This document shows positions 27,582 to 51,430 of a stretch of DNA of 53,468 bases, one piece after another. The DNA comes from Acidobacteriota bacterium (lineage in GTDB: Bacteria; Acidobacteriota; Terriglobia; UBA7540), in the NCBI GenBank assembly GCA_021827255.1, contig JAKAWO010000001.1, forward strand, positions 1 to 53,468. Reading direction: 5' to 3'. How positions within the stretch are numbered: position 1 is the first letter of the stretch; each line of letters opens with the position of its first letter. The notes under the pieces are model-generated. The model was not told the origin of the DNA. It saw only the letters and a list, made by a program, of their open reading frames with translations, and did not search any database. The position numbers and the translations under genes were made by a program.

Positions 27582-28136
27582 CTAATTCGGGCGTGAATTC
27601 CGAGTAGCAACTTTCACCGGGGTCAGCCGCACATCAAGCTTCTGGACGATCGGTTGCTCGACTTTGAGAAGGGTTTCAGAAGGTTCGTACCCCGGGGCTT
27701 CCACACGGAGCGTATGCTCGCCCATAGGGAGCTGGATGGGCCCCAAATCGCGGGCCGATCCAACGTCCGATCCATCCAGAGTCACATGGGCATGCGAAGG
27801 TTTCGCTGTCAGCAGAAGTGTCGTAACCGAATCCCACGGGTAGCCGGCGGAGGGATTGTAACCCGCCTGGCGCGGGTCGTCGCTGGCATTTGGTCCCGCC
27901 CACCAATAGGAACCGAGATAAGAAGTGGAGGGCGGAATCATCGGCAGCGCAAAAGCGGGAGAATAAAAGCCCCCGTACACGTTGAGCGGGACGGGATTAA
28001 AAAAGACGCTCCTCCCGCTGGCAGGCGCTAGGATGCTCGGACCCCCGGCGGCCTCGGCGATAAGGCTAAAATTGGTTGCCAAGAGAAAGCAGAGGAAGCC
28101 GCCAGGAAGGATCAATCGGACGCTTGGCGAACGCAT
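27582..28136 (-). CDS. Secreted PEGA domain protein
   Basis: A signal peptide, then the C-terminal HVTLDGSDVGSARDLGPIQLPMGEHTLRVEAPGYEPSETLLKV, which carries the PEGA motif as APGY. Confidence 0.7.
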   Translation of the reverse strand: MRSPSVRLILPGGFLCFLLATNFSLIAEAAGGPSILAPASGRSVFFNPVPLNVYGGFYSPAFALPMIPPSTSYLGSYWWAGPNASDDPRQAGYNPSAGYPWDSVTTLLLTAKPSHAHVTLDGSDVGSARDLGPIQLPMGEHTLRVEAPGYEPSETLLKVEQPIVQKLDVRLTPVKVATRNSRPN

Positions 28137-28212: not shown

Positions 28213-29136
28213 TCACTGGCCTGAGTGTGGGACGAGCCAGCTCTTCGCTCCAAGATTGTCCGCGGCCAGGACGCGCGCTTCCGCGCGGACGCCGTGCTCC
28301 TGGAGGGCGCCACAGATCAATCGCCCCACGTCCTCCGCGTCTTCCTGGACAAAGCTGAGGATGGAAGGACCTGCACCACTCAGGCAAATGCCCTGGATGC
28401 CAGGGTGCTCAAGGCGGAGGACTTCGCCCAGTCCAGGAATGAGCGGGGCGCGGTAGGGTTGATGGAAACGATCTTCGAAGAGCAATGGCGCAAGATCCAT
28501 CCGGCCGGAAAAAAATTGCGCCGCCAACACCGCCGCTCGCTGCAAATTATGGACGCTGTCGTCGCGGGTGTACTGCGTCGGGAGCACGGCGCGAGCCTTT
28601 TCCGTCGGCAAGGCGTAATCGGGAATCACAAGCACCAAGGTAAGGGTGTCCGGCACCGGACACGACCAGGCTCGGATGCGATAGCCGGCCTGGACGGCGA
28701 GAGTAAAACCTCCGTGCCACGCTGCCGCGACATTATCGGGATGCCCGCCCTCAAGGCGCGCGGCGATGGAGAGCACATCATCGTCGGCGGGCGCGCGGCC
28801 CGCCAGCCGATAGCTCAGGGCGACAGCGGCGATGATTGCGGCGGCGCTTGAACCCAGCCCCACGCCGATGGGGATTTGGTTGTTGATTTCAAGGTCTAGC
28901 CCCTCCGGATGCTTCCACGCGCGCAGAAGATCGCGCATCGTTCGGGCGATCAGATTGCTCTCATCCAGCGCGACCCGTTCCGGTGTCGCTCCCTGATATT
29001 GGATCGAGAGGCCTCCGTCCTCGCGAGGCGCAGCCCCGACTTCCAGATAGAGTTGGAGCGCGATGCCCGCGCAATCAAACGCGCATCCCAGATTGGCGCT
29101 GGTGGCGGGGACACGGACGGAAACGGCTGGCGGCAT
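28213..29136 (-). CDS. thrB: Homoserine kinase (GHMP family)
   Basis: VRVPATSANLGCAFDCAGIAL and IPIGVGLGSSAAAIIAAV (GHMP motif II). The length and C-terminal pattern are typical of ThrB. Confidence 0.9.
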   Translation of the reverse strand: MPPAVSVRVPATSANLGCAFDCAGIALQLYLEVGAAPREDGGLSIQYQGATPERVALDESNLIARTMRDLLRAWKHPEGLDLEINNQIPIGVGLGSSAAAIIAAVALSYRLAGRAPADDDVLSIAARLEGGHPDNVAAAWHGGFTLAVQAGYRIRAWSCPVPDTLTLVLVIPDYALPTEKARAVLPTQYTRDDSVHNLQRAAVLAAQFFSGRMDLAPLLFEDRFHQPYRAPLIPGLGEVLRLEHPGIQGICLSGAGPSILSFVQEDAEDVGRLICGALQEHGVRAEARVLAADNLGAKSWLVPHSGQ

Positions 29137-29182: not shown

Positions 29183-29461
29183 TCAGACGCCCCCGGCGAT
29201 GGCGGGAATCAAAAGCACTTCATCGCCGTCCTCGAAAGCGTAACCGGCCCCGCCGAGAAAGCGAATGTCCTCATCGTTGACGTAAATGTTCACAAAGCGG
29301 TGTGGCGTTCCATCCTCGGCGCAGAGGGCCTTCTTGATGCCTGGAAACTGGCGCTCGAGGCTTTCAAACAAACCGGTGAGATTGGTAGCGTCGCTTTCGG
29401 CGACCTCGGCCCCTCCGGTAAATTTCCTGAGCGGGGGTGGAATGCGAATGGTGATAGCCAA
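29183..29461 (-). CDS. CysO/MoaD/ThiS-family ubiquitin-like sulfur-carrier protein ending in GG-Val
   Basis: AITIRIPPPLRKFTGGAEV...HRFVNIYVNDEDIRFLGGAGYAFEDGDEVLLIPAIAGGV closely parallels Mycobacterium CysO as I recall it (...HRFVNIYVNDEDVRFSGG...ILPAVAGG). I propose a TTG start at 29461, 5 nt after GGAGG. The track's longer N-terminus has no family counterpart. Confidence 0.8.
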   Translation of the reverse strand: MAITIRIPPPLRKFTGGAEVAESDATNLTGLFESLERQFPGIKKALCAEDGTPHRFVNIYVNDEDIRFLGGAGYAFEDGDEVLLIPAIAGGV

Positions 29462-29612
29462 GAGAACCTCCGAAACATGTTGCCACTCCGAATTGAGCGG
29501 CTTGGCACGCTGGCGCCTCAGGGGGCCCCGATGAGTCTTCCCCTTCCCCACGCCCCAACGGTCCTAAACCACGACGGGGAAATGACCGTCGCGGCTATCC
29601 ATTACGCAGACG

Positions 29613-30866
29613 CTAAGCACGAGCTGACGCCAAGCCAAGGTAGTTTTCTTCAAACTCGGCAAGCTTGGGCCGGATGGCCGCGCTGCGGTGTGCGTCGCGC
29701 AACGCGCCGCTCACCGCTCCGAGAGTCTTCATGCCGTTGCCCGTGATCGCCAGGACAATGGATTCGTCGGGATTCAGGCGCCTTTGTTCGATCAGCTTCC
29801 GCGCCACGGCGACGGCCACGCCGCCGGCGGTTTCGGCAAAAATACCTTCCGTCTCGGCCAGCAAACGGATGCCCTCGACGACTTCCTCGTCGGAAGCATC
29901 CTCGCCAGCGCCGCCCGAGCCCAGGATGGTTTTGACGGCATAATAGCCGTCGGCCGGATTGCCGATGGCCAGCGATTTGACGATGGTCCGGGGCTTCTGC
30001 GGCTCGATTTCAGCAATGCCTTTCTTGGCGGCGGTGGTAATGGGTGAACAGCCCGTGGCCTGAGCGCCAAAAAATTTGGTTCCGTGAGGTTCCACCCATC
30101 CGAGCTGCCGAAGCTCGTGGAAAGCCTTATTGATTTTAGTAATCAGCGAACCCCCCGCCATCGGCACCACGATGTTCTGAGGCAGGCGCCATCCCAACTG
30201 CTCCGCTACTTCATAGCCGAAGGTTTTCGATCCTTCGGAATAGTAGGAGCGAAGGTTCACGTTGACGATGCCCCACGAATATTTCTGGGCGATCTCCGAG
30301 CAAAGGCGGTTGACTTGGTCGTAATTCCCGTTGATCTGGACCAGCGTCGCGCCGTAAATTTCCGTGCCGATGATTTTTTCGGGTTCGAGGTCGGCGGGAA
30401 CAAAGATGAAAGTTTTGAAACCGCCGCGCGCCGCTTGCGCCGCGACGGCATTTGCCAGGTTGCCGGTCGAAGAGCATCCCACCGTGTCAAATCCGAACTC
30501 GCGAGCCTTCGAAAGCGCCACGGCCACCACGCGGTCCTTGAACGACAGGGTGGGGAAATTGACGGCGTCGTTTTTCAGATAGACTTCCCGCGCGCCGAGG
30601 GCTCGCGCCAGCCGCGGAGCTAGAGCCAGGGGCGTAAATCCGGTGGAGGTGCCGACGTAAGGCTCACCGGTCAGGGGCAACAATTCATGGTAGCGCCACA
30701 TGGTGGGCGGCCGATGAGCGATGGCGTCGCGAGAAATCTCCGCCCGCAGCCGGTCGTAGTCATACACCACTTCCAGCGGAGCCCAACATTCCTCGCAGGC
30801 GGCCATGGGCTCGATGGGATACCTCCGGCTGCATTCGCGGCATTTCAGGTGAGAGTGATAGTTCAC
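29613..30866 (-). CDS. Threonine synthase-family PLP enzyme with an N-terminal zinc ribbon (ThrC, or a MetM-like O-phosphohomoserine sulfhydrylase)
   Basis: PLP lysine motif FPTLSFKDR, followed by GCSSTGN, and an N-terminal CRECSRRY...CEEC ribbon. GTG start at 30866, 4 nt after GGAGGG. Confidence 0.85.
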   Translation of the reverse strand: MNYHSHLKCRECSRRYPIEPMAACEECWAPLEVVYDYDRLRAEISRDAIAHRPPTMWRYHELLPLTGEPYVGTSTGFTPLALAPRLARALGAREVYLKNDAVNFPTLSFKDRVVAVALSKAREFGFDTVGCSSTGNLANAVAAQAARGGFKTFIFVPADLEPEKIIGTEIYGATLVQINGNYDQVNRLCSEIAQKYSWGIVNVNLRSYYSEGSKTFGYEVAEQLGWRLPQNIVVPMAGGSLITKINKAFHELRQLGWVEPHGTKFFGAQATGCSPITTAAKKGIAEIEPQKPRTIVKSLAIGNPADGYYAVKTILGSGGAGEDASDEEVVEGIRLLAETEGIFAETAGGVAVAVARKLIEQRRLNPDESIVLAITGNGMKTLGAVSGALRDAHRSAAIRPKLAEFEENYLGLASARA

Positions 30867-30940
30867 ATTTCCCTCCGCTCTGTTCTCATCGAAGGCTGGC
30901 TTGCCGGGCGCTGGGTTCCCGAGAGATGGAAAGGAGTTCG

Positions 30941-30976
30941 AAACAAAAAAGCCCTCCCGATCTCATCGGGGGGCTG
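30941..30976 (-). terminator. Intrinsic terminator forming the expression platform of the SAM-I riboswitch
   Basis: The minus-strand RNA reads GCCCCCCGA-UGAGA-UCGGG(A)GGGC followed by UUUUUU. That is a 9-bp GC-rich stem with one bulge and a 5-nt loop, and the U6 tract lies at 30945-30950. Confidence 0.8.
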
Positions 30977-30994
30977 AATGGAGGTTGGGCGACC

Positions 30995-31106
30995 CTCTCT
31001 CATCTCCCCCTAATACGGGCAGGAGTTGGCACCTGCCCCCCGATTTTCATCGGGGCGGTTGCCGTGGCGTCTTCGGGCCCGTCCCTCGGCCACTCTTGAT
31101 GAGATT
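30995..31106 (-). promoter_or_regulatory. SAM-I (S-box) riboswitch aptamer
   Basis: The minus strand reads CUCAUCAAGAGUGGCCGAGGGACGGGCCCGAAGACGCCACGGCAACCGCCCCGAUGAAAAUCGGGGGGCAGGUGCCAACUCCUGCCCGUAUUAGGGGGAGAUGAGAG. It has the P1 pairing CUCAUC/GAUGAG and the conserved cores AAGAG.GGC.GAGGGA..GGCCCGA.GA.GCC.GGCAACC and GGUGCCAA.UCCUGC. Aligned by hand it follows the Thermoanaerobacter SAM-I aptamer closely across the conserved cores. Confidence 0.93.
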
Positions 31107-31125
31107 CAGGCTTGCTGAATCACGT

Positions 31126-31154
31126 ATTCAATTGTCGCTCACTATGTTAGTCAA
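31126..31154 (-). promoter_or_regulatory. Candidate promoter (TTGACT-N17-TTGAAT) for the riboswitch-controlled operon
   Basis: On the minus strand, TTGACT lies at 31154-31149 and TTGAAT at 31131-26. The predicted start is about 10-15 nt upstream of the P1 stem. The -10 is weak. Confidence 0.35.
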
Positions 31155-31257
31155 CAGGGCCGTCCGCTGTCAACCTTAAATTATGCGCCCCAGCCGGTTT
31201 CGCGGAGCGGCGCGCCAGAGCATGGCATGGTAGGCCGCGGCCGGGCGGGACGCCAGG

Positions 31258-32814
31258 TTAATGGGCGGATAGGCTGCGGCCTGTCCGCGGCTTCCTCATC
31301 AGGAAAATGAACGGCCACATGACCATGAATATCATCGCCAGCGTCCAGAAGGTGGCGTTATAAGCCAGCATGGCGCTGTGGCGCTCCACCAGGCGGAACA
31401 GGAAGGCGTCGGCGCGCGTGGAGGCTGTGGCCCCATCGGCCCCTTTCATAAAGAACATCTGCCGCACTGAGTTCGCCAAGGCTTGGCTGCCGAGGCTGTA
31501 GGGATTCACGTGGCGCCCCAGAAGGTTGAAATAGAGCTGCTCGCGGCGGGCCACCAACGTCGTGGAGGCTGCAATTCCCATGCTGCCACCGAGATTCCGC
31601 ATCAGGTTGAAGATGCTCGTGGCATTGCCCATACGCTCATTCGCGATCGGGTCCATCGTCGCGGTCGTCAACGGGACGAAGATCATTCCCATGGCGAGGC
31701 CCTGAATGAACTGCGGCCAGAATACCTGCCAGTAGCCAATGTTGAGATTGAGCGTGCCCAACATCATGAAGCTGATTGCCGTCACCAAGACACCGACGCT
31801 GAGCATTTTGCGGGCATCAAAACGCATCAATAGCACTCCCACGGTGGGCATCATCAAAAAGGAGCCAAAACCGCGCGGAAACAGCGCAATGCCCGCCTGG
31901 AGCGCAGGGTAACCGAGCAGCGTTTGCAACAGCAGTGGCAGGATGACCAAGCCGCCGTAAAGGCCGAAGCCGAGCAAGGTCATCAAAAACACGCCCGTGC
32001 CGTAGGTGCGAACCTTGAAGACGCGCAAGTCCACCACCGGGTGCTCGGTCATCAGCTCGCGGATGATGAAGATGACGATCGCTATGCCAGCGATGATGGC
32101 GAGGGTGAGGATAAAATGCGACCCGAACCAGTCGTCCTCCTGGCCCTTGTCGAGGACAATTTGCAAACAGGCGACGCCCAAGGCCAGAAACCCGATTCCC
32201 CAATAATCTATGCCGCCCTTGGAGCGTCTCAAGTAAGGCGGGTCGAAGATGAAGAGCTCGGTCATGACCAGCGCCAGGATGCCCACCGGCACGTTAATGT
32301 AAAAGACCCAGCGCCAGCTATAGCTGTCCGTAATCCAGCCGCCCAGCACCGGCCCCAGCATGGGGGCGACGACGATGCCCAATCCCCAAAACCCCATCGC
32401 TTTGCCGCGCTCTTCGGGAGGAAAAGTTTCCAGCAGCACCGCCTGCGAAATCGGCTGCAAGCCGCCGCCGCAGGCTCCCTGAATCACGCGGAAGACGATG
32501 AGTGCGGAAAGGGTAGGGGCGAAGCCACAGAGGAAAGATGCGGCGGTGAACCCCGTCACAGCCATCATCAGGAGGCGCTTGCGTCCGAATCGGCCAGCCA
32601 GCCAGCCCGTCATGGGCAGGATGATGGCGTTGGCGACCAGATAAGAAGTCAGCGCCCAGGTCGCTTCGTCCGGCGTTGCTGAAAGGCTGCCGGCAATGTG
32701 CGGCAGGGAAACATTGACCACCGTGGTGTCGAGCACTTCCATAAACGTGCTCAACATCACCGCAATGGCGATGATCCAGCGGTTGATCGGCGGTTTTTCG
32801 ATGGGCTCAGCCAT
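31258..32814 (-). CDS. DHA2-family (EmrB/QacA-type, 14-TMS) MFS efflux permease
   Basis: LDTTVVNVSLPHIAGSL, GWLAGRFGRKRLL and GACGGGLQP are MFS/DHA2 motifs. About 14 hydrophobic segments. ATG 32814 is preferred to the track's TTG at 32820. Confidence 0.87.
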   Translation of the reverse strand: MAEPIEKPPINRWIIAIAVMLSTFMEVLDTTVVNVSLPHIAGSLSATPDEATWALTSYLVANAIILPMTGWLAGRFGRKRLLMMAVTGFTAASFLCGFAPTLSALIVFRVIQGACGGGLQPISQAVLLETFPPEERGKAMGFWGLGIVVAPMLGPVLGGWITDSYSWRWVFYINVPVGILALVMTELFIFDPPYLRRSKGGIDYWGIGFLALGVACLQIVLDKGQEDDWFGSHFILTLAIIAGIAIVIFIIRELMTEHPVVDLRVFKVRTYGTGVFLMTLLGFGLYGGLVILPLLLQTLLGYPALQAGIALFPRGFGSFLMMPTVGVLLMRFDARKMLSVGVLVTAISFMMLGTLNLNIGYWQVFWPQFIQGLAMGMIFVPLTTATMDPIANERMGNATSIFNLMRNLGGSMGIAASTTLVARREQLYFNLLGRHVNPYSLGSQALANSVRQMFFMKGADGATASTRADAFLFRLVERHSAMLAYNATFWTLAMIFMVMWPFIFLMRKPRTGRSLSAH

Positions 32815-32820
32815 AATCAA

Positions 32821-33441
32821 TCAAGAATGAGCGCGAGGGACTCCTGCGGCGCAAACAATGGTGGCGGCCACGGTCTCAAGACCCAGGGTTGAGGAGATGG
32901 TTAAATGGTACAGGCGGCGGTCTTTCCAGTCCTCGCCGAAGAATCGCTTGATGTAGGCTGAGCGTTTGCGGTCAGTCTCCTCCAGGGCTCGCTCGACATC
33001 GGTGCCGGGAGCCAGCCGTCCGCGAAGACGTTGCACTTTTTCCTCGCGCGGCGCGAAGACGGAAACGTGGAAAACATCCTTGCGCCGGCGCAGCACACAC
33101 TGACTCCCGCGGCCGACAATCACACATTCGCCGGCCTGAGCGGCCTCGCGGAAAATTTCGGCGGTCATCTTTGCCATTGTCTCCGAATCGAAGGGCTCAG
33201 ACTCAGGGGTCGTCGCGGTAGAGGCATATGCGTGCCACAGGGCCTTCACCAGGCCATAAAACCAAGGGTCCACGCCTTCATCCGAACGCGCCGCCGCATT
33301 AGGAGGGACCTTCGCCCGGCGGGCGACCTCATCCACCACCGAGGCGTCCAGCAGCTTCCATCCCAGATGCTTAGCCAGGATTTCGGCGACGATTCCACCG
33401 CCGCTGCCGTGCTCGCGACTGACTGTGATGACGCGAAACAT
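32821..33441 (-). CDS. Cytidylate kinase-like family protein (Cytidylate_kin2-type P-loop protein)
   Basis: ITVSREHGSGGGIVAEILAKHLGWKLLD, CVIVGRGSQCVLRRRKDVFHVSVFAP, DRKRSAYIKRFFGEDWKDRRLYHLTISS. This is the diagnostic pattern of the cytidylate-kinase-like family of unknown function. Confidence 0.8.
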   Translation of the reverse strand: MFRVITVSREHGSGGGIVAEILAKHLGWKLLDASVVDEVARRAKVPPNAAARSDEGVDPWFYGLVKALWHAYASTATTPESEPFDSETMAKMTAEIFREAAQAGECVIVGRGSQCVLRRRKDVFHVSVFAPREEKVQRLRGRLAPGTDVERALEETDRKRSAYIKRFFGEDWKDRRLYHLTISSTLGLETVAATIVCAAGVPRAHS

Positions 33442-33451
33442 TTCCGCCCCT

Positions 33452-34714
33452 CTACCTTTTTGTAATCACTGTGGGCTCGACCGACATGCCCTCCCGCAAA
33501 AGATGCTGCGGATCCTGCCCTGGATCGAACACAATCTTCACCGGAATCCGCTGCACTACTTTGACGTAATTTCCCGTGGCGTTTTCTGGCGGCAGCAGGC
33601 TGAATCGGTCCCCGGTCGCGCCGGCGATATTGAGAACGTGCCCTTTGTAATCCCGGCCGTAGGCGTCCACGTGGATTGTGGCTGGATTGCCCGGGCGCAT
33701 ATGCCGCAACTGGGTCTCCTTGAAATTGGCGGTGACGTAAAGGCCGTTGACGGGGACCACCGCCATCAGCGCCTGGCCCGCCTCGACGTTTTGGCCGGGC
33801 TCGATGGACTTTTTCCCGACGATGCCGTCGGCCGGCGCGCGGATCGTGGTGTAGCCGAGGTTGAGCTGCGCCTGGTCCAGGTTGGCCTTGGCCATCTTTA
33901 CAGCCGCGCGCGCCGCGTCCGCTTGAGCGCGGCTGACCCTAATACGTTGCGGTCCGGTCCTCGATGCCCGCAGGTTCGCTTGCGTCAGCAACAGCCCGGC
34001 TCGCGCCTCGGCCACCTTCTGCCGGGCCGCCAGCGCGTTCGCCTGCGCGGCGGTCACCGCCGCCGCATCCGCTTGCGCCGTGGCCAGCGTATGGTCGTAA
34101 CGCTGGCGCGAGATTTCTCCTTTCTTCACCAGCGCCGCGTATCGCCGCAAATCCGATTGGGCCTTCGCGTCATCCGCCTGTTTTTGTTTGACGGTGGCGT
34201 CGGCCGCTTGATACTCCCTTTGCGCCACGGCGAGCTCCGCCTGCGCTTGCTCGACGGCCGCTTGGGCGGCGGAGATTCCCGTGGAGGAAGCCACGGAGGT
34301 GATCGGCACCGTCACGTGCAACGCTTCGGCGTGAGCCAAGGCGTTCTCGTACTCGGCTTCGGCGCGCTCGACCGCCACTCGATAGTCGGTGGGGTCCAGG
34401 CGCGCCAGGATCTGCCCCTTCTTTACAAAGTCGTTGTTCTCCACCTCGACGGCGATGACGTGCCCGCTGACGCGCGCGCTGATGGCATAGAGATCGCCGT
34501 CAATCTGCGCGTCGTCCGTGCTCACCCGGTTGCGGTAGTAAAAATAAAAGCCAGTGACGACCGCGAGCGCCACGAGCCCCCCCGCCACGATCAAGCGGCG
34601 CGTCTTCGGGCGGGTTCGCGGCGCGGGAACGCTCTCGCGTTCGGCCACTCCGCCCGGTGGGGCTTCGCTCCGGTTTTCTTGCTCCAATTCGGTGATGTTG
34701 GGTGGTTCAGCCAT
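33452..34714 (-). CDS. HlyD/EmrA-type periplasmic adaptor (membrane fusion protein)
   Basis: An N-terminal TM is followed by STDDAQIDGDLYAISARVSGHVIAVEV.NNDFVKKGQILARLDP. There is a long coiled coil rich in A/Q/R, then TIRAPADGIVGKKSIEPGQ and GMSVEPTV. Confidence 0.87.
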   Translation of the reverse strand: MAEPPNITELEQENRSEAPPGGVAERESVPAPRTRPKTRRLIVAGGLVALAVVTGFYFYYRNRVSTDDAQIDGDLYAISARVSGHVIAVEVENNDFVKKGQILARLDPTDYRVAVERAEAEYENALAHAEALHVTVPITSVASSTGISAAQAAVEQAQAELAVAQREYQAADATVKQKQADDAKAQSDLRRYAALVKKGEISRQRYDHTLATAQADAAAVTAAQANALAARQKVAEARAGLLLTQANLRASRTGPQRIRVSRAQADAARAAVKMAKANLDQAQLNLGYTTIRAPADGIVGKKSIEPGQNVEAGQALMAVVPVNGLYVTANFKETQLRHMRPGNPATIHVDAYGRDYKGHVLNIAGATGDRFSLLPPENATGNYVKVVQRIPVKIVFDPGQDPQHLLREGMSVEPTVITKR

Positions 34715-34723
34715 GACGATTCC

Positions 34724-36358
34724 TCACTTCGAATAGAGATCCTCCATCTTGCCCATCGCGCGGGCCAACTCCGCCCGCGACTCGTTGTATTGATAGAGGG
34801 CGCCGATCTGATTGTCGTTGGCTCGCGCCAGTTCATCTTGCGCGGTAACGACTTCAATATCGTTGGCCACGCCGGCCGCAAAGCGGTCACGCGCCTCAGC
34901 GACTTCCTGGTTTGCCAGTTTCACGCCCAGGTTGGCTACTTCGACCTGGTGCTTGGCGGACTCTAGATCCGCCAGCGCCGTCTTCACCTCGAGCGCGATC
35001 CGGGCGCGGATGTCCTGATCCTGTTCCTGTAGCGCCCGAAGCGCCAAATGAGCCTTGGCTCGCTCCGCCCGGATGCGGCCACTTGAGATCAAGGGAAACT
35101 GGACGTTCACCTGGTACGTGTACGCCGGAATGGCCGACGCCACCGAGAGACCCTGATACTCCCAGCCGCCCCCCACATTGACGGTGGGCCAGCGTGCCTC
35201 GCCCGCCGCCTTTTCCTCGGACTCCGCGGCTCGTTCGCGCGCCTCGATAGCCTTCAGTTCCGGACGGCTGGCAAAGGCCGCCGCCAGAGTGGACCCCGCG
35301 TTGAACGAAGGGGTTTCGAAAAAACTCATCTCGTTCTTCAGGACAATGGGTTGGCGGGGGCCCAGATTGAGCAGCCTCGCCAGCCCATAGAGCGATGTCC
35401 GCAAGTCGGTCTCGGCCGCAATTCTCCGCTGCAATTCGTTTTGAAGCTGGACGTTGGCGCGCAGCGTATCGAGCTCTGTGCCCACGCCGTGCGTTTGAAG
35501 GTCGCGCGCCTGCTGATAAAGCGCCCGCGCCAGCGCCACCCGCGCCTGCGAAGCCCTTACGTTAGCGGCGGCCCGCAGCCCGGCGAGATATTGGGAAACG
35601 ACCAGCAAAACCGTCTGCTCGCGGACCGTCGCGGCGTCTTGCTGGCTGGCCTGGACACTGTGCTGCGCCGCCTGCCATTTTCGCAACAGGCTGAGGTCAA
35701 AAATCGGCATCGAGAAGCGCGGGCCCGACTGGAAGACTTGAAAAGGCCCCACGTGCTCGAAGGGCAGTGGGAAAGCTCCGCCGGCGAACGCTTTGATGTT
35801 GAATCGCTGAACTTCGTCGAAGGTGTCGAGGGTCGCTTGGGGCAGCAATCCGGATCGCGCGATCTTCTGGTCCTGCTCGCTCTCCGCCAGCGTCAGGTTC
35901 GCAATCTGCGCCTCGGGATTCTGCCGCAGAGCTAACTGGACTGCCTGCCGCAAGCTCAATTGGAGGGGCGGTTTGGCTGCGGCATTCGCTTTTCGCCCCG
36001 CCCCAAAGGGAAGGATCAACAGCAGCAGCGCGCCCACGATCTTCTTCGTCTCGCGGCTGGCTGGCGGCATTCCGGAGGACGGCGGCGCTTCTTTCGAGAT
36101 CTCTTCCACCAGGCGCTTGGTCATGCAGTCCTGCGCTCGCAGCTTGCCCCCCGCCTGATAAATCCTCGAGAGCACTCGTTTGCCCTCGGCGTCAATGAAG
36201 GTGACGCCTGTCAAGTCCATCACGAGGTTCTGCGTCTGCCCGCCTCCTTGCGCTTCCCGCCACTTTCGTTCCAATTCGCCTGCCCACTGTCCCACGAGTT
36301 TTCCTTCCACCTTGAAAGTCGCCTGACCGGGTTCAAATTGCGCGGTTATTTTCAGCAT
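34724..36358 (-). CDS. TolC-family outer membrane factor preceded in the same frame by a STAS (anti-sigma-antagonist-like) domain
   Basis: Residues from MLKITAQFEPGQATFKVEGKLVGQWAGELERKW...LVMDLTGVTFIDAEGKRVL form a STAS-like module. An internal Met at 36070 then begins a complete Sec signal peptide (MPPASRETKKIVGALLLLILPFGAGRKANA/AA), followed by TolC repeats (LSLRQAVQLALRQNPEAQIANL...). There is no stop codon between the two parts. Confidence 0.75.
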   Translation of the reverse strand: MLKITAQFEPGQATFKVEGKLVGQWAGELERKWREAQGGGQTQNLVMDLTGVTFIDAEGKRVLSRIYQAGGKLRAQDCMTKRLVEEISKEAPPSSGMPPASRETKKIVGALLLLILPFGAGRKANAAAKPPLQLSLRQAVQLALRQNPEAQIANLTLAESEQDQKIARSGLLPQATLDTFDEVQRFNIKAFAGGAFPLPFEHVGPFQVFQSGPRFSMPIFDLSLLRKWQAAQHSVQASQQDAATVREQTVLLVVSQYLAGLRAAANVRASQARVALARALYQQARDLQTHGVGTELDTLRANVQLQNELQRRIAAETDLRTSLYGLARLLNLGPRQPIVLKNEMSFFETPSFNAGSTLAAAFASRPELKAIEARERAAESEEKAAGEARWPTVNVGGGWEYQGLSVASAIPAYTYQVNVQFPLISSGRIRAERAKAHLALRALQEQDQDIRARIALEVKTALADLESAKHQVEVANLGVKLANQEVAEARDRFAAGVANDIEVVTAQDELARANDNQIGALYQYNESRAELARAMGKMEDLYSK

Positions 36359-36395
36359 CGCACATCCCACGTAAGTGAATTTCAGGAACCCAAGC

Positions 36396-36411
36396 TGCAA
36401 GGCGGGTGCCA
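36396..36411 (-). promoter_or_regulatory. Sigma-54 (-24/-12) promoter, TGGCAC-N5-TTGCA
   Basis: The minus strand reads TTGGCACCCGCCTTGCAGC, a perfect GG-N10-GC element. It lies 38 nt upstream of the ATG at 36358 and 173 nt downstream of the stop of a sigma-54 enhancer-binding protein gene. The track's TTG start at 36412 lies within this element. Confidence 0.8.
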
Positions 36412-36519
36412 AGCTGGCCGATTGGCCCGGATGGGATTTAACCCCCTGAAAACCAGGTGGTTACAAGAAAATTGGGGGTCAGGACTGACGCAATTTTGAT
36501 CCACTTAGTGGCTGTTAAC

Positions 36520-49503: not shown

Positions 49504-51240
49504 TTACTCGTTATTCTTGATAACTCGCAGCGATGGCATCGGTCGCTCCCAGAGGATGTGCGCGTCCGCGGCATCGTGCGGGAAGTAAGGCGTCGAGCGT
49601 TTGTTGTCGGGCATGAGCACCACGTCCACGCGACGGTTGTTGGCCAAAACGTCGTCGTACCAGAAACGCATCTTCGCTGGCGCCTGGGGATTCTTGGCTT
49701 CCAAGGCTTTGACGTCGTCCAAGCTGAGCTCCTTGGTCTTCCCGTAAGCCTTGACGGTGATCGCGTCGGCCGGAACGCCTTGCGAGACCAAGTAGCTCTT
49801 CACGGCCTCGCCGCGGCGCTCGGAGAGAATCTGGTTGTAATGGAGCGGACCACGAACGTCCGCGTGAGCTTCCAGGATCAAGCTCGCGTTCGGGTTGTCA
49901 TTGTGATAGGCGATAAAGGTCGAGGCCAGCTTGTTGAGAGCATCCCTTTGGCTATTGAGCAATCCGTCATGCGGATGGGCTGGCGAAGGCCAGTTGGTGG
50001 GGAAGAAGATGCTGCTGAGGGCGACCTCATGGTGAGCTGCCTCGATCAGGCCCGTGATGTGGACGGTAGCGGTTTCGGTTGCCGAGCCGCCGCAAGCATT
50101 CGACGCCGTCAGGGTGTAAGTATCCGTTTCATCAACTGGCCCTGGGGTCGTCTGCTTGGGGGTGGGGGTAATGGTTCGGCTCCCGCTTGTCTCCACCGTC
50201 CCGATCGGGTCAATGCTGACCGTCTGGGCATTGGAGGTGGACCAAGTGAGTGTGGCTGAACCTTGCTCGACGACCTTGCTGCCGACCTTGTGGTATCGGA
50301 CTTCGCTCGGCTCGATGGTTATGGACGCCTGGATAGCCTTATCCACACTCACCGTGGAGCTGGACTTTACCACGCCGCCCGGTCCTGAAGCCGTGAAGTC
50401 GTAGGTCGTCGTCTCTTTCGGCGAAACCGACTGACTGCCCGAGGGCGCTACTTTGCCCACCTCGCTGATCTCAGTCGCCACCGCATCGCTCGATGACCAA
50501 GTTAGCTGGCTCGATCCTCCGCACTTGATGCTCGTAGGGTTGGCAGAAAATTCCCCCTTGACCGGAGCCACAGCGACAGTGGCGCTGGCACGGCCTGCCT
50601 TGAAGCGCGGCAAGGAGGTGACCTTCTTGCCTTCCGGCCAAGCCTGAGTCGTGGTAGAGCCGTTTTGGTTCACATGCACGATCGTCATTTCGTTCGGATG
50701 CACCGTCACGTCGCCGGACCAGATCGTCTGTCCCCACCACGTGATGGTCATGTGCTGAGTGCCGGGAGGCATGACGAGTTGCTCCTTGCCCGTCAAAAAC
50801 TCGTGGTCGAATTCATCCACATGCCCCACAAAATAGGCCGGCGTGCTCCCGTTCATCAGCACGGCAGCGTGGGGCGGAGCCCCCTTGATCTCGATCGCGC
50901 CCCAAGGAGGCGAAACGGGACCACCTTGGCGCTGCAGGTCAACCTTCAGGTTCGTTACCTTGCCGGCCCGCAGGTCAACCTTTTGAGTCGAAGTCTTATA
51001 ACCGTAATTGTGGACGGATACCGTGTGTTCACCAGGGGAAAGCCAAATCGTGCAAAGATGGGCCATGGTGCAGTTCCCTTCTTTCAGAGCTGCGCCATCT
51101 ACGAAGACGTAAGCTTGCGACGGACTAACTTGGATCCTCAGTTTCCCACGGGCACCCCGAGAATAGGCCGGAGGAACTGTGCCGAGCAGGAGCAGGGTCG
51201 CGAGTCCGACAAGGAGCAATGAGCTGCGTCGCGAATTCAT
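49504..51240 (-). CDS. Secreted PEGA / tandem Ig-like repeat / OmpA-C-like peptidoglycan-binding protein
   Basis: ATG 51240 follows GGGAGG; signal peptide MNSRRSSLLLVGLATLLLLGTVPPAYS. A PEGA-like module is present (LRIQVSPSQAYVFVDGAAL...GEHTVSVHNYGYKT). Two related repeats share LTWS[ST]S[DN]A...TTY.[FL]TAS. The C-terminal OmpA-like domain reads ILEAHADVRGPLHYNQILSERRGEAVKSYLVSQGV. Confidence 0.8.
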   Translation of the reverse strand: MNSRRSSLLLVGLATLLLLGTVPPAYSRGARGKLRIQVSPSQAYVFVDGAALKEGNCTMAHLCTIWLSPGEHTVSVHNYGYKTSTQKVDLRAGKVTNLKVDLQRQGGPVSPPWGAIEIKGAPPHAAVLMNGSTPAYFVGHVDEFDHEFLTGKEQLVMPPGTQHMTITWWGQTIWSGDVTVHPNEMTIVHVNQNGSTTTQAWPEGKKVTSLPRFKAGRASATVAVAPVKGEFSANPTSIKCGGSSQLTWSSSDAVATEISEVGKVAPSGSQSVSPKETTTYDFTASGPGGVVKSSSTVSVDKAIQASITIEPSEVRYHKVGSKVVEQGSATLTWSTSNAQTVSIDPIGTVETSGSRTITPTPKQTTPGPVDETDTYTLTASNACGGSATETATVHITGLIEAAHHEVALSSIFFPTNWPSPAHPHDGLLNSQRDALNKLASTFIAYHNDNPNASLILEAHADVRGPLHYNQILSERRGEAVKSYLVSQGVPADAITVKAYGKTKELSLDDVKALEAKNPQAPAKMRFWYDDVLANNRRVDVVLMPDNKRSTPYFPHDAADAHILWERPMPSLRVIKNNE

Positions 51241-51430
51241 TCGATGTACCTCCCTCAATCTTTCTTCACTGGTGCTTAAGGACAAAACGAGCTTAGCATT
51301 GACCCAGGGGAAAAAACACCAACTTCCAAGGTGGTAGCTTAGCAAGACGCTCGCCATATGTCAATGAGATTAACGCGCAATAAATACAAGCGATAGTCAT
51401 AGGAAGGCATCTCGCAGCCCTGTGAATTTT

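What the first reader, a model, noticed from the sequence alone, without database searches (positions are those of the whole stretch)
30941..31154. Unambiguous SAM-I riboswitch with a terminator platform in front of an operon annotated by homology as threonine biosynthesis
The minus strand at 30995-31106 contains every conserved SAM-I core segment (P1 CUCAUC/GAUGAG, AAGAG.GGC.GAGGGA, GGCCCGA.GA.GCC, GGCAACC, GGUGCCAA.UCCUGC). A GC-rich hairpin plus U6 terminator follows 18 nt downstream, and then a thrC-like gene. A SAM-sensing OFF switch makes regulatory sense for methionine/SAM supply genes. It does not fit a pure threonine pathway, where high SAM should favour flux to threonine. The riboswitch therefore re-labels the function of the downstream genes.
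Basis: partly seen in the sequence, partly recalled or inferred. Interest (0 to 1): 0.7.

Follow-up and report, generated by a model that had tools for sequence, protein, structure and literature searches.

The report
SAM riboswitch controlling mislabelled homocysteine-synthesis operon

Summary
Rfam's SAM-I model (RF00162) matches window 30997-31105 (minus strand) over its full length at 82.9 bits (threshold 44.4, E 4e-18). A conserved sigma-70-type promoter precedes it. A strong hairpin plus U6 terminator follows at 30974-30945.

The operon behind it has three genes:
- a ThrC-like PLP enzyme with an N-terminal four-Cys zinc ribbon (29613-30866);
- homoserine kinase ThrB (28213-29136).

This matches the MetM/MetO route (O-phosphohomoserine plus carrier thiocarboxylate gives homocysteine), described in Streptomyces albulus in 2024, where metM also has an upstream SAM riboswitch.

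Of 80 related loci from many phyla:
- 47 carry a SAM-I aptamer directly upstream;
- 72 have the carrier gene on the same strand downstream, usually immediately.

In three Nitrospirota genomes this clade sits beside a canonical ThrC that is only 32-35% identical to the window protein.

This is a new member of a known kind. The only local twists are thrB inside the SAM-controlled operon and a one-residue tail after the carrier's GG.

The parts
31144..31173 (-). Sigma-70-type promoter: -35 TTGACA (31173-31168), 18-nt spacer, -10 TAACAT (31149-31144). Predicted transcription start near 31137.
   Evidence: Consensus scan gives 10 of 12 matches. The -35 box is invariant, and a TAnnAT-like -10 sits at the same spacing in four related leaders (alignment A4). 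No transcript data.
31116..31130 (-). Small 5'-leader hairpin UGAAU-ACGUG-AUUCA at the start of the transcript, of unknown role; it may stabilise the mRNA.
   Evidence: The sequence GACAATTGAATAT.TGATTCAG is conserved in 4 of 5 related leaders. It is predicted as a hairpin in the folds.
30997..31105 (-). SAM-I (S-box) riboswitch aptamer. P1 is formed by AUCUCAUC (31105-31098) and GAUGAGAG (31004-30997).
   Evidence: RF00162 at 82.9 bits against a 44.4 threshold, E 3.9e-18, full model. Across 48 homologous leaders, 96% of cells are paired and 18 of 30 pairs show compensatory changes, against about 44% paired in the slid controls.
30945..30974 (-). Intrinsic terminator (OFF element): stem-loop 30974-30951 and U6 at 30950-30945. 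It contains a second copy of the P1 3' strand, GAUGAGAUCGGG (30967-30956).
   Evidence: Pattern scan. The hairpin folds at -17.8 kcal/mol. A hairpin plus U-run sits at the same position in relatives, with compensatory sequence changes.
31098..31110 (-). Predicted anti-terminator partner: CCUGAAUCUCAUC (the P1 5' strand plus 5 upstream nt). It can pair with 30967-30956 inside the terminator instead of with the P1 3' strand.
   Evidence: On transcript 31137-30945 this alternative fold (-78.3 kcal/mol) is near iso-energetic with aptamer plus terminator (-75.3). This is prediction only. Relatives L004, L006 and L007 lack the repeat, and a classical antiterminator (P1 3' strand pairing with the terminator 5' arm) was predicted only for L007.
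29613..30866 (-). ThrC-like PLP enzyme of 417 aa with an N-terminal CxxC...CxxC zinc ribbon. It is the probable MetM-type homocysteine synthase, auto-annotated as threonine synthase. GTG start; Shine-Dalgarno GGAGG at 30876-30872.
   Evidence: Pfam PALP at 230 bits. TIGR00260 scores 270 bits, above its 167 cutoff, which explains the automatic name. It scores only 132-170 bits against solved bacterial ThrC structures, whereas a canonical ThrC scores 430-508. The PLP-lysine motif SFKDR is conserved; C9, C24 and C27 are invariant in the 14-sequence alignment, and the full CxxC...CxxC pattern is read from that alignment. Clade separation is shown.
29183..29461 (-). ThiS/MoaD-type sulfur-carrier protein (MetO-like) of 92 aa, with a TTG start after GGAGG (29470-29466). 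Its C-terminus is ...IPAIAGG-V.
   Evidence: Pfam ThiS at 49 bits. TIGR01687 MoaD-family scores 38 bits, below its cutoff. A homolog lies on the same strand downstream of the ThrC-like gene in 72 of 80 loci, usually immediately. The AGG motif is conserved: 30 homologs end exactly at GG and the rest carry short tails or fusions. It is 37% identical to the Nonomuraea carrier.
28213..29136 (-). Homoserine kinase ThrB of 307 aa, which makes O-phosphohomoserine, the presumed MetM substrate. It lies 46 nt after the carrier gene with no terminator between them.
   Evidence: TIGR00191 at 241 bits, above its 168 cutoff. No internal minus-strand terminator was found. thrB also follows the riboswitch-controlled ThrC-like gene in L004, L005, L046 and L067.

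Best explanation
This is a SAM-I riboswitch that shuts off, by premature transcription termination, a three-gene operon for making homocysteine from homoserine through O-phosphohomoserine.

The inferred pathway has three steps. ThrB phosphorylates homoserine. The small ThiS/MoaD-like carrier (MetO-like) is trimmed of its terminal Val, then adenylated and thiocarboxylated by enzymes encoded elsewhere. The ThrC-like PLP enzyme (MetM-like) replaces the phosphate of O-phosphohomoserine with the carrier's sulfur, giving homocysteine and hence methionine and SAM.

The inferred switch works as follows. When SAM is abundant it locks helix P1 of the aptamer, the downstream GC-rich hairpin plus U6 forms, and RNA polymerase terminates before the operon. 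When SAM is scarce, the 5' strand of P1 plus five upstream bases can pair instead with a duplicate of the P1 3' strand embedded in the terminator. That blocks the terminator and allows read-through.

Shown here: the aptamer's identity, the terminator-like hairpin and its conservation, the gene identities, and the cross-phylum linkage of riboswitch, ThrC-like gene and carrier gene. Inferred: SAM binding, the exact anti-terminator pairing, the enzyme chemistry, and the trans-encoded activating enzymes.
For: Riboswitch:
- RF00162 full-length hit at 82.9 bits, E 4e-18.
- Compensatory changes in P1-P4 across 48 homologous leaders.
- The promoter and terminator are conserved in position, with covarying terminator arms, in related Acidobacteriota.
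- The ON and OFF folds lie within 3 kcal/mol of each other.

Operon:
- PALP ThrC-like enzyme, ThiS-like carrier and ThrB.
- SAM-I lies upstream of the ThrC-like gene in 47 of 80 loci, from Acidobacteriota, Verrucomicrobiota, Planctomycetota, Chloroflexota, Kiritimatiellae and Deltaproteobacteria.
- It is also there in the cultured actinomycetes Micromonospora and Nonomuraea; in Nonomuraea the carrier gene follows immediately.
- The carrier gene is adjacent in about 72 of 80 loci, with a conserved AGG end.
- In relatives the carrier is fused in frame to ThiF (E1), to a NIL domain, or possibly to ThrB.
- The clade is distinct from canonical ThrC and coexists with it in Nitrospirota.

Literature:
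- MetM/MetO converts O-phosphohomoserine to homocysteine in S. albulus, and MetM is 'often misannotated' as threonine synthase (10.1101/2024.10.14.618325, Appendix 4).
- S. albulus metM has an upstream SAM riboswitch (PMC12172450).
Against: - No biochemical or genetic data exist for this organism or for any Acidobacteriota member.
- I could not obtain the S. albulus MetM sequence, so orthology rests on about 51% identity to actinomycete homologs with the same riboswitch/carrier arrangement, not on a direct comparison.
- The Microcystis homolog (51.6% identical to MetM, with an adjacent MetO-like gene) was reported to act as a threonine synthase/deaminase in vitro and not clearly as MetM (PMC12172450).
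- No E1 (MoeZ/ThiF) or JAMM (Mec) gene is in the 53 kb window.
- A classical antiterminator is not evident in the window; the proposed alternative pairing is a thermodynamic prediction and is shared only with L005.
- If this thrB is the only homoserine kinase, putting it under SAM control would also throttle threonine synthesis. That is unexplained.
Confidence: 0.8

Rival explanations
1. The gene is a true threonine synthase, as every database names it. The SAM riboswitch then simply co-regulates the threonine branch (thrC and thrB) with methionine status, and the small ThiS-like gene is incidental.
For: - TIGR00260 (thrC equivalog) scores 270 bits, above its 167 cutoff.
- The best PDB hits are all threonine synthases.
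- thrB is a bona fide homoserine kinase.
- The Microcystis homolog showed threonine synthase/deaminase activity in vitro (PMC12172450).
Against: - The ThrC-like gene is only 32-35% identical to canonical ThrC, and it sits beside a canonical ThrC in three Nitrospirota genomes.
- The carrier gene is linked in about 72 of 80 loci, which is not incidental.
- SAM-I is linked across many phyla.
- A SAM OFF switch on threonine synthesis runs against known branch-point logic: in plants SAM activates threonine synthase (established knowledge).
- The Streptomyces homolog was shown to be a homocysteine synthase (10.1101/2024.10.14.618325).
Confidence: 0.07
2. The ThrC-like enzyme and carrier make a different sulfur compound. 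One candidate is cysteine from O-phosphoserine, as in the mycobacterial CysM/CysO system; another is an unknown thio-amino acid. SAM would then control sulfur flow upstream of methionine.
For: - The carrier-plus-PLP-enzyme architecture parallels CysO/CysM (own knowledge).
- SAM riboswitches also control cysteine and sulfur-assimilation genes in some bacteria (own knowledge).
- The enzyme's substrate is not established for this clade.
Against: - thrB (the O-phosphohomoserine supplier) is co-transcribed here and in L004, L005, L046 and L067, possibly even fused to the carrier in L046.
- In Nitrospirota the pair clusters with thrC, a HomK-type homoserine kinase and aspartate kinase, that is, the homoserine branch.
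- The fold family is ThrC, which binds O-phosphohomoserine, rather than CysK/CysM (cysK/cysM models score only about 39-43 bits).
Confidence: 0.08
3. The aptamer is real, but regulation is not by the intrinsic terminator. SAM binding might instead act through Rho-dependent termination or translation, or the hairpin plus U6 might terminate constitutively as an attenuator.
For: - No classical antiterminator is found in the window, and the terminator still forms when the P1 5' strand is held unpaired.
- 17 of 47 related leaders lack a terminator-like hairpin by a crude scan.
- In Micromonospora and Nonomuraea the aptamer ends about 10 nt before the start codon, which implies translational control there.
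Against: - The hairpin plus U-run is conserved, with compensatory changes, at a fixed distance from the aptamer in the closest relatives.
- About 75 nt separate the terminator from the Shine-Dalgarno sequence, so the aptamer cannot sequester it directly.
- A near iso-energetic alternative fold that blocks the terminator exists.
Confidence: 0.05

Closest known systems
Streptomyces albulus metM-metO with upstream SAM riboswitch (Hasebe et al. 2024, Appl Environ Microbiol 90:e01247-24; known here only through PMC12172450 and preprint 10.1101/2024.10.14.618325)
   Same: Both have a ThrC-homologous enzyme plus a ThiS/MoaD-type carrier, and a SAM riboswitch in front. The automatic name 'threonine synthase' is wrong in both. 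O-phosphohomoserine is the substrate. The actinomycetes Nonomuraea and Micromonospora have the same arrangement, and their enzymes are 50-51% identical to the window's.
   Different: This one is from a different phylum (Acidobacteriota/Terriglobia). thrB is inside the riboswitch-controlled operon. The window has a terminator-type platform, whereas in the actinomycete homologs examined the aptamer abuts the start codon. The carrier ends GGV. No direct sequence comparison with S. albulus MetM was possible.
Classical S-box (SAM-I) regulon of Bacillus subtilis and other Firmicutes (Rfam RF00162)
   Same: The aptamer has the same four-helix architecture and conserved core, and uses OFF regulation by an intrinsic terminator in the leader of a methionine-biosynthesis operon.
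   Different: The controlled genes are not the usual metI/metC/metE/metK set. The predicted anti-terminator uses the P1 5' strand pairing with a copy of the P1 3' strand inside the terminator, rather than the P1 3' strand pairing with the terminator's 5' arm (prediction only).
Mycobacterium tuberculosis CysO-CysM-Mec cysteine pathway, and Wolinella succinogenes HcyS-HcyD-HcyF-MetY homocysteine pathway (own knowledge)
   Same: A ubiquitin-like carrier thiocarboxylate donates sulfur to a PLP enzyme acting on an activated hydroxy-amino acid. A residue after the GG, as in HcyS-Ala, implies trimming by a JAMM protease.
   Different: The PLP enzyme here has the ThrC fold rather than the CysM or MetY fold. 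The substrate is O-phosphohomoserine, not O-phosphoserine or O-acetylhomoserine. No protease or E1 gene is adjacent in the window.
Plant methionine/threonine branch point at O-phosphohomoserine (own knowledge)
   Same: O-phosphohomoserine is the shared precursor of methionine and threonine, and SAM is the signal that partitions flux between them.
   Different: Plants use cystathionine gamma-synthase and allosteric activation of threonine synthase by SAM. Here the control is an RNA switch that turns off the methionine-branch enzyme and the kinase.

Membership tests
SAM-I riboswitch (Rfam RF00162) | Covariance-model score at or above the curated gathering threshold over the full model | tested here: met
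   82.9 bits against 44.4, model positions 1-108 of 108, E 3.9e-18.
SAM-I riboswitch (Rfam RF00162) | Four-way junction P1-P4 supported by compensatory base changes in homologous leaders | tested here: met
   Across 48 leaders, 96% of cells are paired against about 44% in the slid controls. 18 of 30 pairs show changes on both sides, and 0 of 500 shuffles reach the observed values. An independent RNAalifold fold on 7 sequences gives 12 compensatory pairs. The alignment was model-fitted, which biases it slightly toward the structure.
SAM-I riboswitch (Rfam RF00162) | Sense-strand 5' leader of a gene, followed by an expression platform | tested here: met
   The promoter-like site, aptamer, hairpin plus U6, Shine-Dalgarno sequence and GTG start all lie on the minus strand. 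The terminator is conserved in relatives.
SAM-I riboswitch (Rfam RF00162) | Binds S-adenosylmethionine and changes termination efficiency | not testable with these tools
   This needs in-line probing or ITC, and single-round transcription.
MetM/MetO thiocarboxylate-dependent homocysteine synthesis | PLP enzyme homologous to threonine synthase, with the PLP-lysine motif | tested here: met
   PALP domain at 230 bits. ThrC models and ThrC structures are the best hits. K110 in the SFKDR motif is invariant.
MetM/MetO thiocarboxylate-dependent homocysteine synthesis | A paralog distinct from the housekeeping threonine synthase, which is also present in the genome | tested here: inconclusive
   This is met in relatives: L023, L030 and L057 encode both, and the canonical copies are 32-35% identical to the window protein. 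L030's canonical ThrC scores 430-508 bits against solved bacterial ThrC structures, against 132-170 for the window protein. Whether this organism has a second thrC cannot be seen in a 53 kb window.
MetM/MetO thiocarboxylate-dependent homocysteine synthesis | Adjacent ThiS/MoaD-type sulfur-carrier gene with a C-terminal Gly-Gly | tested here: met
   ThiS domain. The carrier ends ...AIAGG-V. It is adjacent in about 72 of 80 loci, and 30 homologs end exactly at GG.
MetM/MetO thiocarboxylate-dependent homocysteine synthesis | SAM-responsive regulation, as for S. albulus metM | tested here: met
   SAM-I lies directly upstream. PMC12172450 states that S. albulus metM has an upstream SAM riboswitch.
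MetM/MetO thiocarboxylate-dependent homocysteine synthesis | Closer in sequence to the characterised S. albulus MetM than to canonical ThrC | not tested
   The S. albulus sequence was not obtainable: the paper is not held and no Streptomyces hit came. As a proxy, the window protein is 50-51% identical to Nonomuraea and Micromonospora homologs that also have SAM-I upstream.
MetM/MetO thiocarboxylate-dependent homocysteine synthesis | Carrier-activating E1 (MoeZ-type) and a C-terminal trimming protease (Mec/JAMM) are available | tested here: inconclusive
   Neither is in the window. These genes need not be clustered. A relative fuses the carrier to ThiF (L055).
MetM/MetO thiocarboxylate-dependent homocysteine synthesis | Catalyses O-phosphohomoserine plus carrier-COSH to homocysteine | not testable with these tools
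   This needs an enzyme assay or complementation.
Canonical threonine synthase (ThrC) | High similarity to experimentally solved ThrC enzymes and the same domain layout | tested here: not met
   The window protein scores 132-170 bits against the four bacterial ThrC structures, whereas a canonical ThrC from L030 scores 430-508. It has an extra N-terminal zinc ribbon that canonical ThrC lacks. It does pass the broad TIGR00260 cutoff, which explains the automatic name.

The most novel reading that the evidence does not exclude
In this Acidobacteriota lineage, and independently in a Limnocylindrales MAG (L046) and another Acidobacteriota MAG (L067), homoserine kinase itself is placed under the SAM riboswitch together with MetM/MetO. 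SAM would then gate entry into O-phosphohomoserine, the shared methionine/threonine branch point. That implies one of two things. Either there is a second, methionine-independent homoserine kinase dedicated to threonine (a HomK-type enzyme, as in L030). Or this is an undescribed regulatory logic in which threonine supply depends on leaky read-through of a SAM switch. The unusual predicted anti-terminator, in which the P1 5' strand pairs with a copy of the P1 3' strand inside the terminator, would be a variant S-box platform.
Probability: 0.25. Interest if true: 0.45.

Novelty: new member of a known kind. Interest (0 to 1): 0.3.

Why it matters
The main value is for annotation. The riboswitch, the adjacent sulfur-carrier gene and the coexistence with a real ThrC indicate that this large, cross-phylum clade makes homocysteine instead.

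That changes metabolic reconstructions for Acidobacteriota, Verrucomicrobiota, Planctomycetota and other groups. In those reconstructions methionine biosynthesis may look incomplete and threonine synthase may look duplicated.

The finding also illustrates that a riboswitch's ligand can correct a homology-based gene name. It does not open a new mechanism, because the pathway and its SAM-riboswitch link were published in 2024.

Tried and rejected
1. I tried to read Hasebe et al. 2024 by DOI and by PMC id. It is not held, so its content is cited only through two papers that describe it.

2. I tried to reach a Streptomyces MetM sequence three ways, and none yielded a Streptomyces member:
- naming 18 divergent cluster representatives, which gave only Micromonosporaceae, a Thermoplasmatota MAG and unnamed metagenome proteins;
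- searching with the Micromonosporaceae representative, which returned only Micromonosporaceae;
- the plasmid collection, which instead gave a useful Nonomuraea locus.

3. I looked for a classical antiterminator (P1 3' strand against the terminator 5' arm) in the window. None was predicted, although one was predicted in relative L007.

4. I looked for other RNA families, an internal terminator or an internal promoter inside the operon. Nothing credible turned up. The ACA64 snoRNA hit at E 0.78 is chance.

5. I looked for E1, JAMM or other met genes elsewhere in the window and found none.

6. I rejected the idea that the long 122-aa ORF call is the real carrier gene. Homology starts at residue 31, and a TTG with a good Shine-Dalgarno sequence lies at 29461.

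7. Structure prediction was not used, because it would not discriminate MetM from ThrC chemistry.
Full report
**Observation**

A scan of the whole window against all 4227 Rfam families returns exactly one hit above gathering threshold. It is the SAM-I riboswitch aptamer (RF00162) at 30997-31105 on the minus strand. It covers the full model (positions 1-108) at 82.9 bits against a threshold of 44.4, with E 3.9e-18 (reproduced).

Other elements of the leader, read directly from the sequence:
- **P1 helix:** AUCUCAUC (31105-31098) pairs with GAUGAGAG (31004-30997).
- **Terminator:** 22 nt after the aptamer there is a stem-loop G30974-C30951. It has ten base pairs, one bulged A and a GAG loop, at -17.8 kcal/mol. 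U6 follows at 30950-30945.
- **Promoter:** a sigma-70-type site lies upstream, with TTGACA at 31173-31168, an 18-nt spacer, and TAACAT at 31149-31144.
- **Translation start:** a GGAGG Shine-Dalgarno sequence (30876-30872) and a GTG start at 30866 open the first gene.

**Conservation of the leader**

Five homologous leaders from related Acidobacteriota were aligned.
- The -35 box is invariant.
- The terminator hairpin plus U-run keeps its position while its arms change in a compensatory way (GCCCCCCGAU/AUCGGGAGGGC in the window; GCCUCUUC/GAAGAGGC in L004).

I built a covariance model from the window aptamer plus six Rfam-confirmed aptamers from other phyla. It finds 48 aptamers in the window and the related loci. 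On their alignment, 96% of cells are paired against about 44% when partners are slid. Eighteen of 30 pairs show changes on both sides, and no shuffle reaches the observed values. The aptamer is therefore real and under selection.

**Expression platform**

On the predicted transcript 31137-30945, two folds are close in energy without ligand.
- **OFF fold:** closed aptamer plus terminator, -75.3 kcal/mol.
- **ON fold:** -78.3 kcal/mol. CCUGAAUCUCAUC (31110-31098, the P1 5' strand plus five upstream bases) pairs with GAUGAGAUCGGG (30967-30956). This is a second copy of the P1 3' strand inside the terminator, so the terminator cannot form.

Two states that close in energy are consistent with a ligand-tipped switch. 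This is a thermodynamic prediction only.
- The same repeat occurs in L005, but there the ON fold (-65.3 kcal/mol) is 5.4 kcal/mol less favourable than the OFF fold (-70.7), so the near iso-energetic balance is specific to the window.
- L004, L006 and L007 lack the repeat. A classical antiterminator was predicted only for L007.
- By a crude scan, 30 of 47 related leaders have a terminator-like platform.
- In Micromonospora and Nonomuraea the aptamer ends about 10 nt before the start codon, which suggests translational control there.

**The operon**

Three genes follow on the minus strand.
- **29613-30866:** a 417-aa PLP enzyme of the ThrC fold (Pfam PALP, 230 bits). It has an N-terminal CxxC...CxxC zinc ribbon. 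It passes NCBI's broad thrC model (TIGR00260, 270 bits against a 167 cutoff), which explains why every named hit listed is called 'threonine synthase'.
- **29183-29461:** a 92-aa ThiS/MoaD-type protein ending ...IPAIAGGV. Its start is a TTG after GGAGG; the longer 122-aa ORF call is an over-extension.
- **28213-29136:** homoserine kinase ThrB (TIGR00191, 241 bits). It lies 46 nt after the carrier gene with no terminator between them.

**Comparative evidence**

A scan of one genome per GTDB species returned 80 loci encoding proteins 54-80% identical to the window enzyme. They come from Acidobacteriota, Verrucomicrobiota, Planctomycetota, Nitrospirota, Chloroflexota, Cyanobacteria, Deltaproteobacteria and others.
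- In 47 of the 80 loci a SAM-I aptamer lies on the same strand within about 75-255 nt upstream of the gene (828 nt in one case).
- In 72 of 80 a homolog of the small carrier lies on the same strand downstream, usually immediately, with a conserved (V/I)P(A/S)(I/V)AGG end. Thirty end exactly at GG; the rest carry short tails like the window's single Val, or longer extensions.
- thrB follows the ThrC-like gene only in the window's closest relatives (L001-L005) and in L046 and L067.
- In relatives the carrier is fused in frame to a ThiF-type E1 (L055) or a NIL domain (L016, L073 and others), and runs in frame into ThrB in L046. These links point to sulfur-carrier activation and to the homoserine/methionine branch.

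**Distinct from canonical ThrC**

In the Nitrospirae locus L030 the gene order is as follows:
1. zinc-ribbon ThrC-like gene;
2. carrier gene;
3. canonical 363-aa ThrC;
4. HomK-type homoserine kinase (TIGR02535);
5. aspartate kinase.

That canonical ThrC scores 430-508 bits against the four solved bacterial threonine synthases, whereas the window protein scores 132-170 bits against the same four. In a neighbour-joining tree the zinc-ribbon clade (50-62% identical to the window protein) separates cleanly from the canonical paralogs of the same genomes (32-35% identical). The window gene is therefore a paralog that coexists with true ThrC, not the housekeeping enzyme.

**What is known**

The GapMind 2026 preprint (10.1101/2024.10.14.618325, Appendix 4) summarises Hasebe et al. 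2024. In Streptomyces albulus, MetM is a threonine synthase homolog 'often misannotated as such'. It converts O-phosphohomoserine to homocysteine using the thiocarboxylate of the carrier MetO, with MoeZ as the sulfur ligase and Mec for carrier maturation.

PMC12172450 states that S. albulus metM has an upstream SAM riboswitch. A 2026 preprint (10.64898/2026.09.15.751699) notes that B. subtilis ThrC is 33% identical to MetM, the same distance I see between the two clades.

I could not read the primary paper or obtain the S. albulus sequence. Two cultured actinomycetes reproduce the arrangement, however.
- **Nonomuraea gerenzanensis:** SAM-I (3816-3957), then the ThrC-like gene (51% identical to the window's), then the carrier ending AGG (37% identical).
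- **Micromonospora coriariae:** SAM-I directly upstream of its ThrC-like gene.

**Interpretation**

The best explanation (confidence about 0.8) is a SAM-I OFF riboswitch that terminates transcription of a MetM-like, MetO-like and ThrB operon. That operon would convert homoserine to homocysteine through O-phosphohomoserine.

That argument is supported. The refinement is that only the thrC-like gene changes meaning; thrB remains a homoserine kinase that feeds it.

Caveats:
- There is no biochemistry for this clade outside Streptomyces.
- The Microcystis homolog behaved as a threonine synthase/deaminase in vitro (PMC12172450).
- The E1 and the trimming protease are not in the window.
- Placing thrB under SAM control raises the question of how threonine synthesis is fed when SAM is high.

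Rival explanations are a true threonine synthase (0.07), a different sulfur product (0.08) and a non-terminator mechanism (0.05).

**Novelty and score**

The element is a standard SAM-I riboswitch, and the pathway it controls, including the riboswitch clue, was published in 2024. This is a new member of a known kind.

Points of modest interest:
- the breadth of the SAM-I/ThrC-like/carrier linkage across phyla, which makes the 'threonine synthase' misannotation a large-scale issue;
- thrB inside the switch-controlled operon;
- the predicted variant anti-terminator.

Interest is 0.3.

Noticed in passing
L032, L036, L041, L045, L048, L051 (e.g. L036:7244-7618): In several Acidobacteriaceae the MetO-like carrier continues past its AGG motif into a Cys-rich tail of about 15-35 residues, ...CSCCSYCGQEECxCGD. 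The tail has no Pfam match. It could be a metal- or sulfur-binding appendage, or a pro-peptide removed on maturation.
   Followed up: partly
L055:7241-8302; L016:7288-7803; L073:6334-6906 (also L025, L034, L049); L046:7270-8583: The carrier is fused in frame to a ThiF-type E1 (L055, an Actinomycetota MAG) and to a NIL domain (several Deltaproteobacteria and Planctomycetia). In L046 it runs without a stop codon into ThrB. The L046 case may be two genes that happen to lack an intervening stop.
   Followed up: partly
L030:5986-11384 (also L023, L057): Nitrospirota cluster the MetM-like gene, the carrier, canonical ThrC, a HomK-type homoserine kinase (TIGR02535, 567 bits) and aspartate kinase in one array. 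No SAM-I aptamer was found upstream in these loci.
   Followed up: partly
window 30884-30890 (-): A third copy of GAUGAGA (the P1 3'-strand sequence) lies downstream of the terminator and 7 nt 5' of the Shine-Dalgarno sequence of the ThrC-like gene. GATGA is partly conserved there in relatives. It may be chance, or a second pairing partner for the P1 5' strand.
   Followed up: no
window 31116-31130 (-): A conserved 5'-terminal leader hairpin, UGAAU-ACGUG-AUUCA, lies just after the predicted transcription start. The sequence GACAATTGAATAT.TGATTCAG is conserved in 4 of 5 related leaders.
   Followed up: no
window 29462-29612 (-): The gap between the ThrC-like gene and the carrier gene is unusually long at 151 nt (about 30-100 nt in most relatives). 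No RNA family hit or terminator was found in it.
   Followed up: partly
window 31258-36412 (-): Directly upstream on the same strand is an EmrAB/TolC-type efflux set: a DHA2 MFS permease (31258-32820), a cytidylate-kinase-like protein (32821-33441), a membrane-fusion protein (33452-34714) and an outer-membrane factor with an N-terminal STAS domain (34724-36412). The STAS-OEP combination is unusual.
   Followed up: no
window 27582-28136 (-) and 49504-51357 (-): There are two PEGA-domain proteins. One lies immediately after thrB and may be co-transcribed with the operon. The other is fused to an OmpA domain.
   Followed up: no
L075:5057-5172: In a Binataceae MAG the SAM-I aptamer lies 828 nt upstream of the ThrC-like gene, so another gene probably sits between them in the riboswitch-controlled unit. 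That gene was not examined.
   Followed up: no
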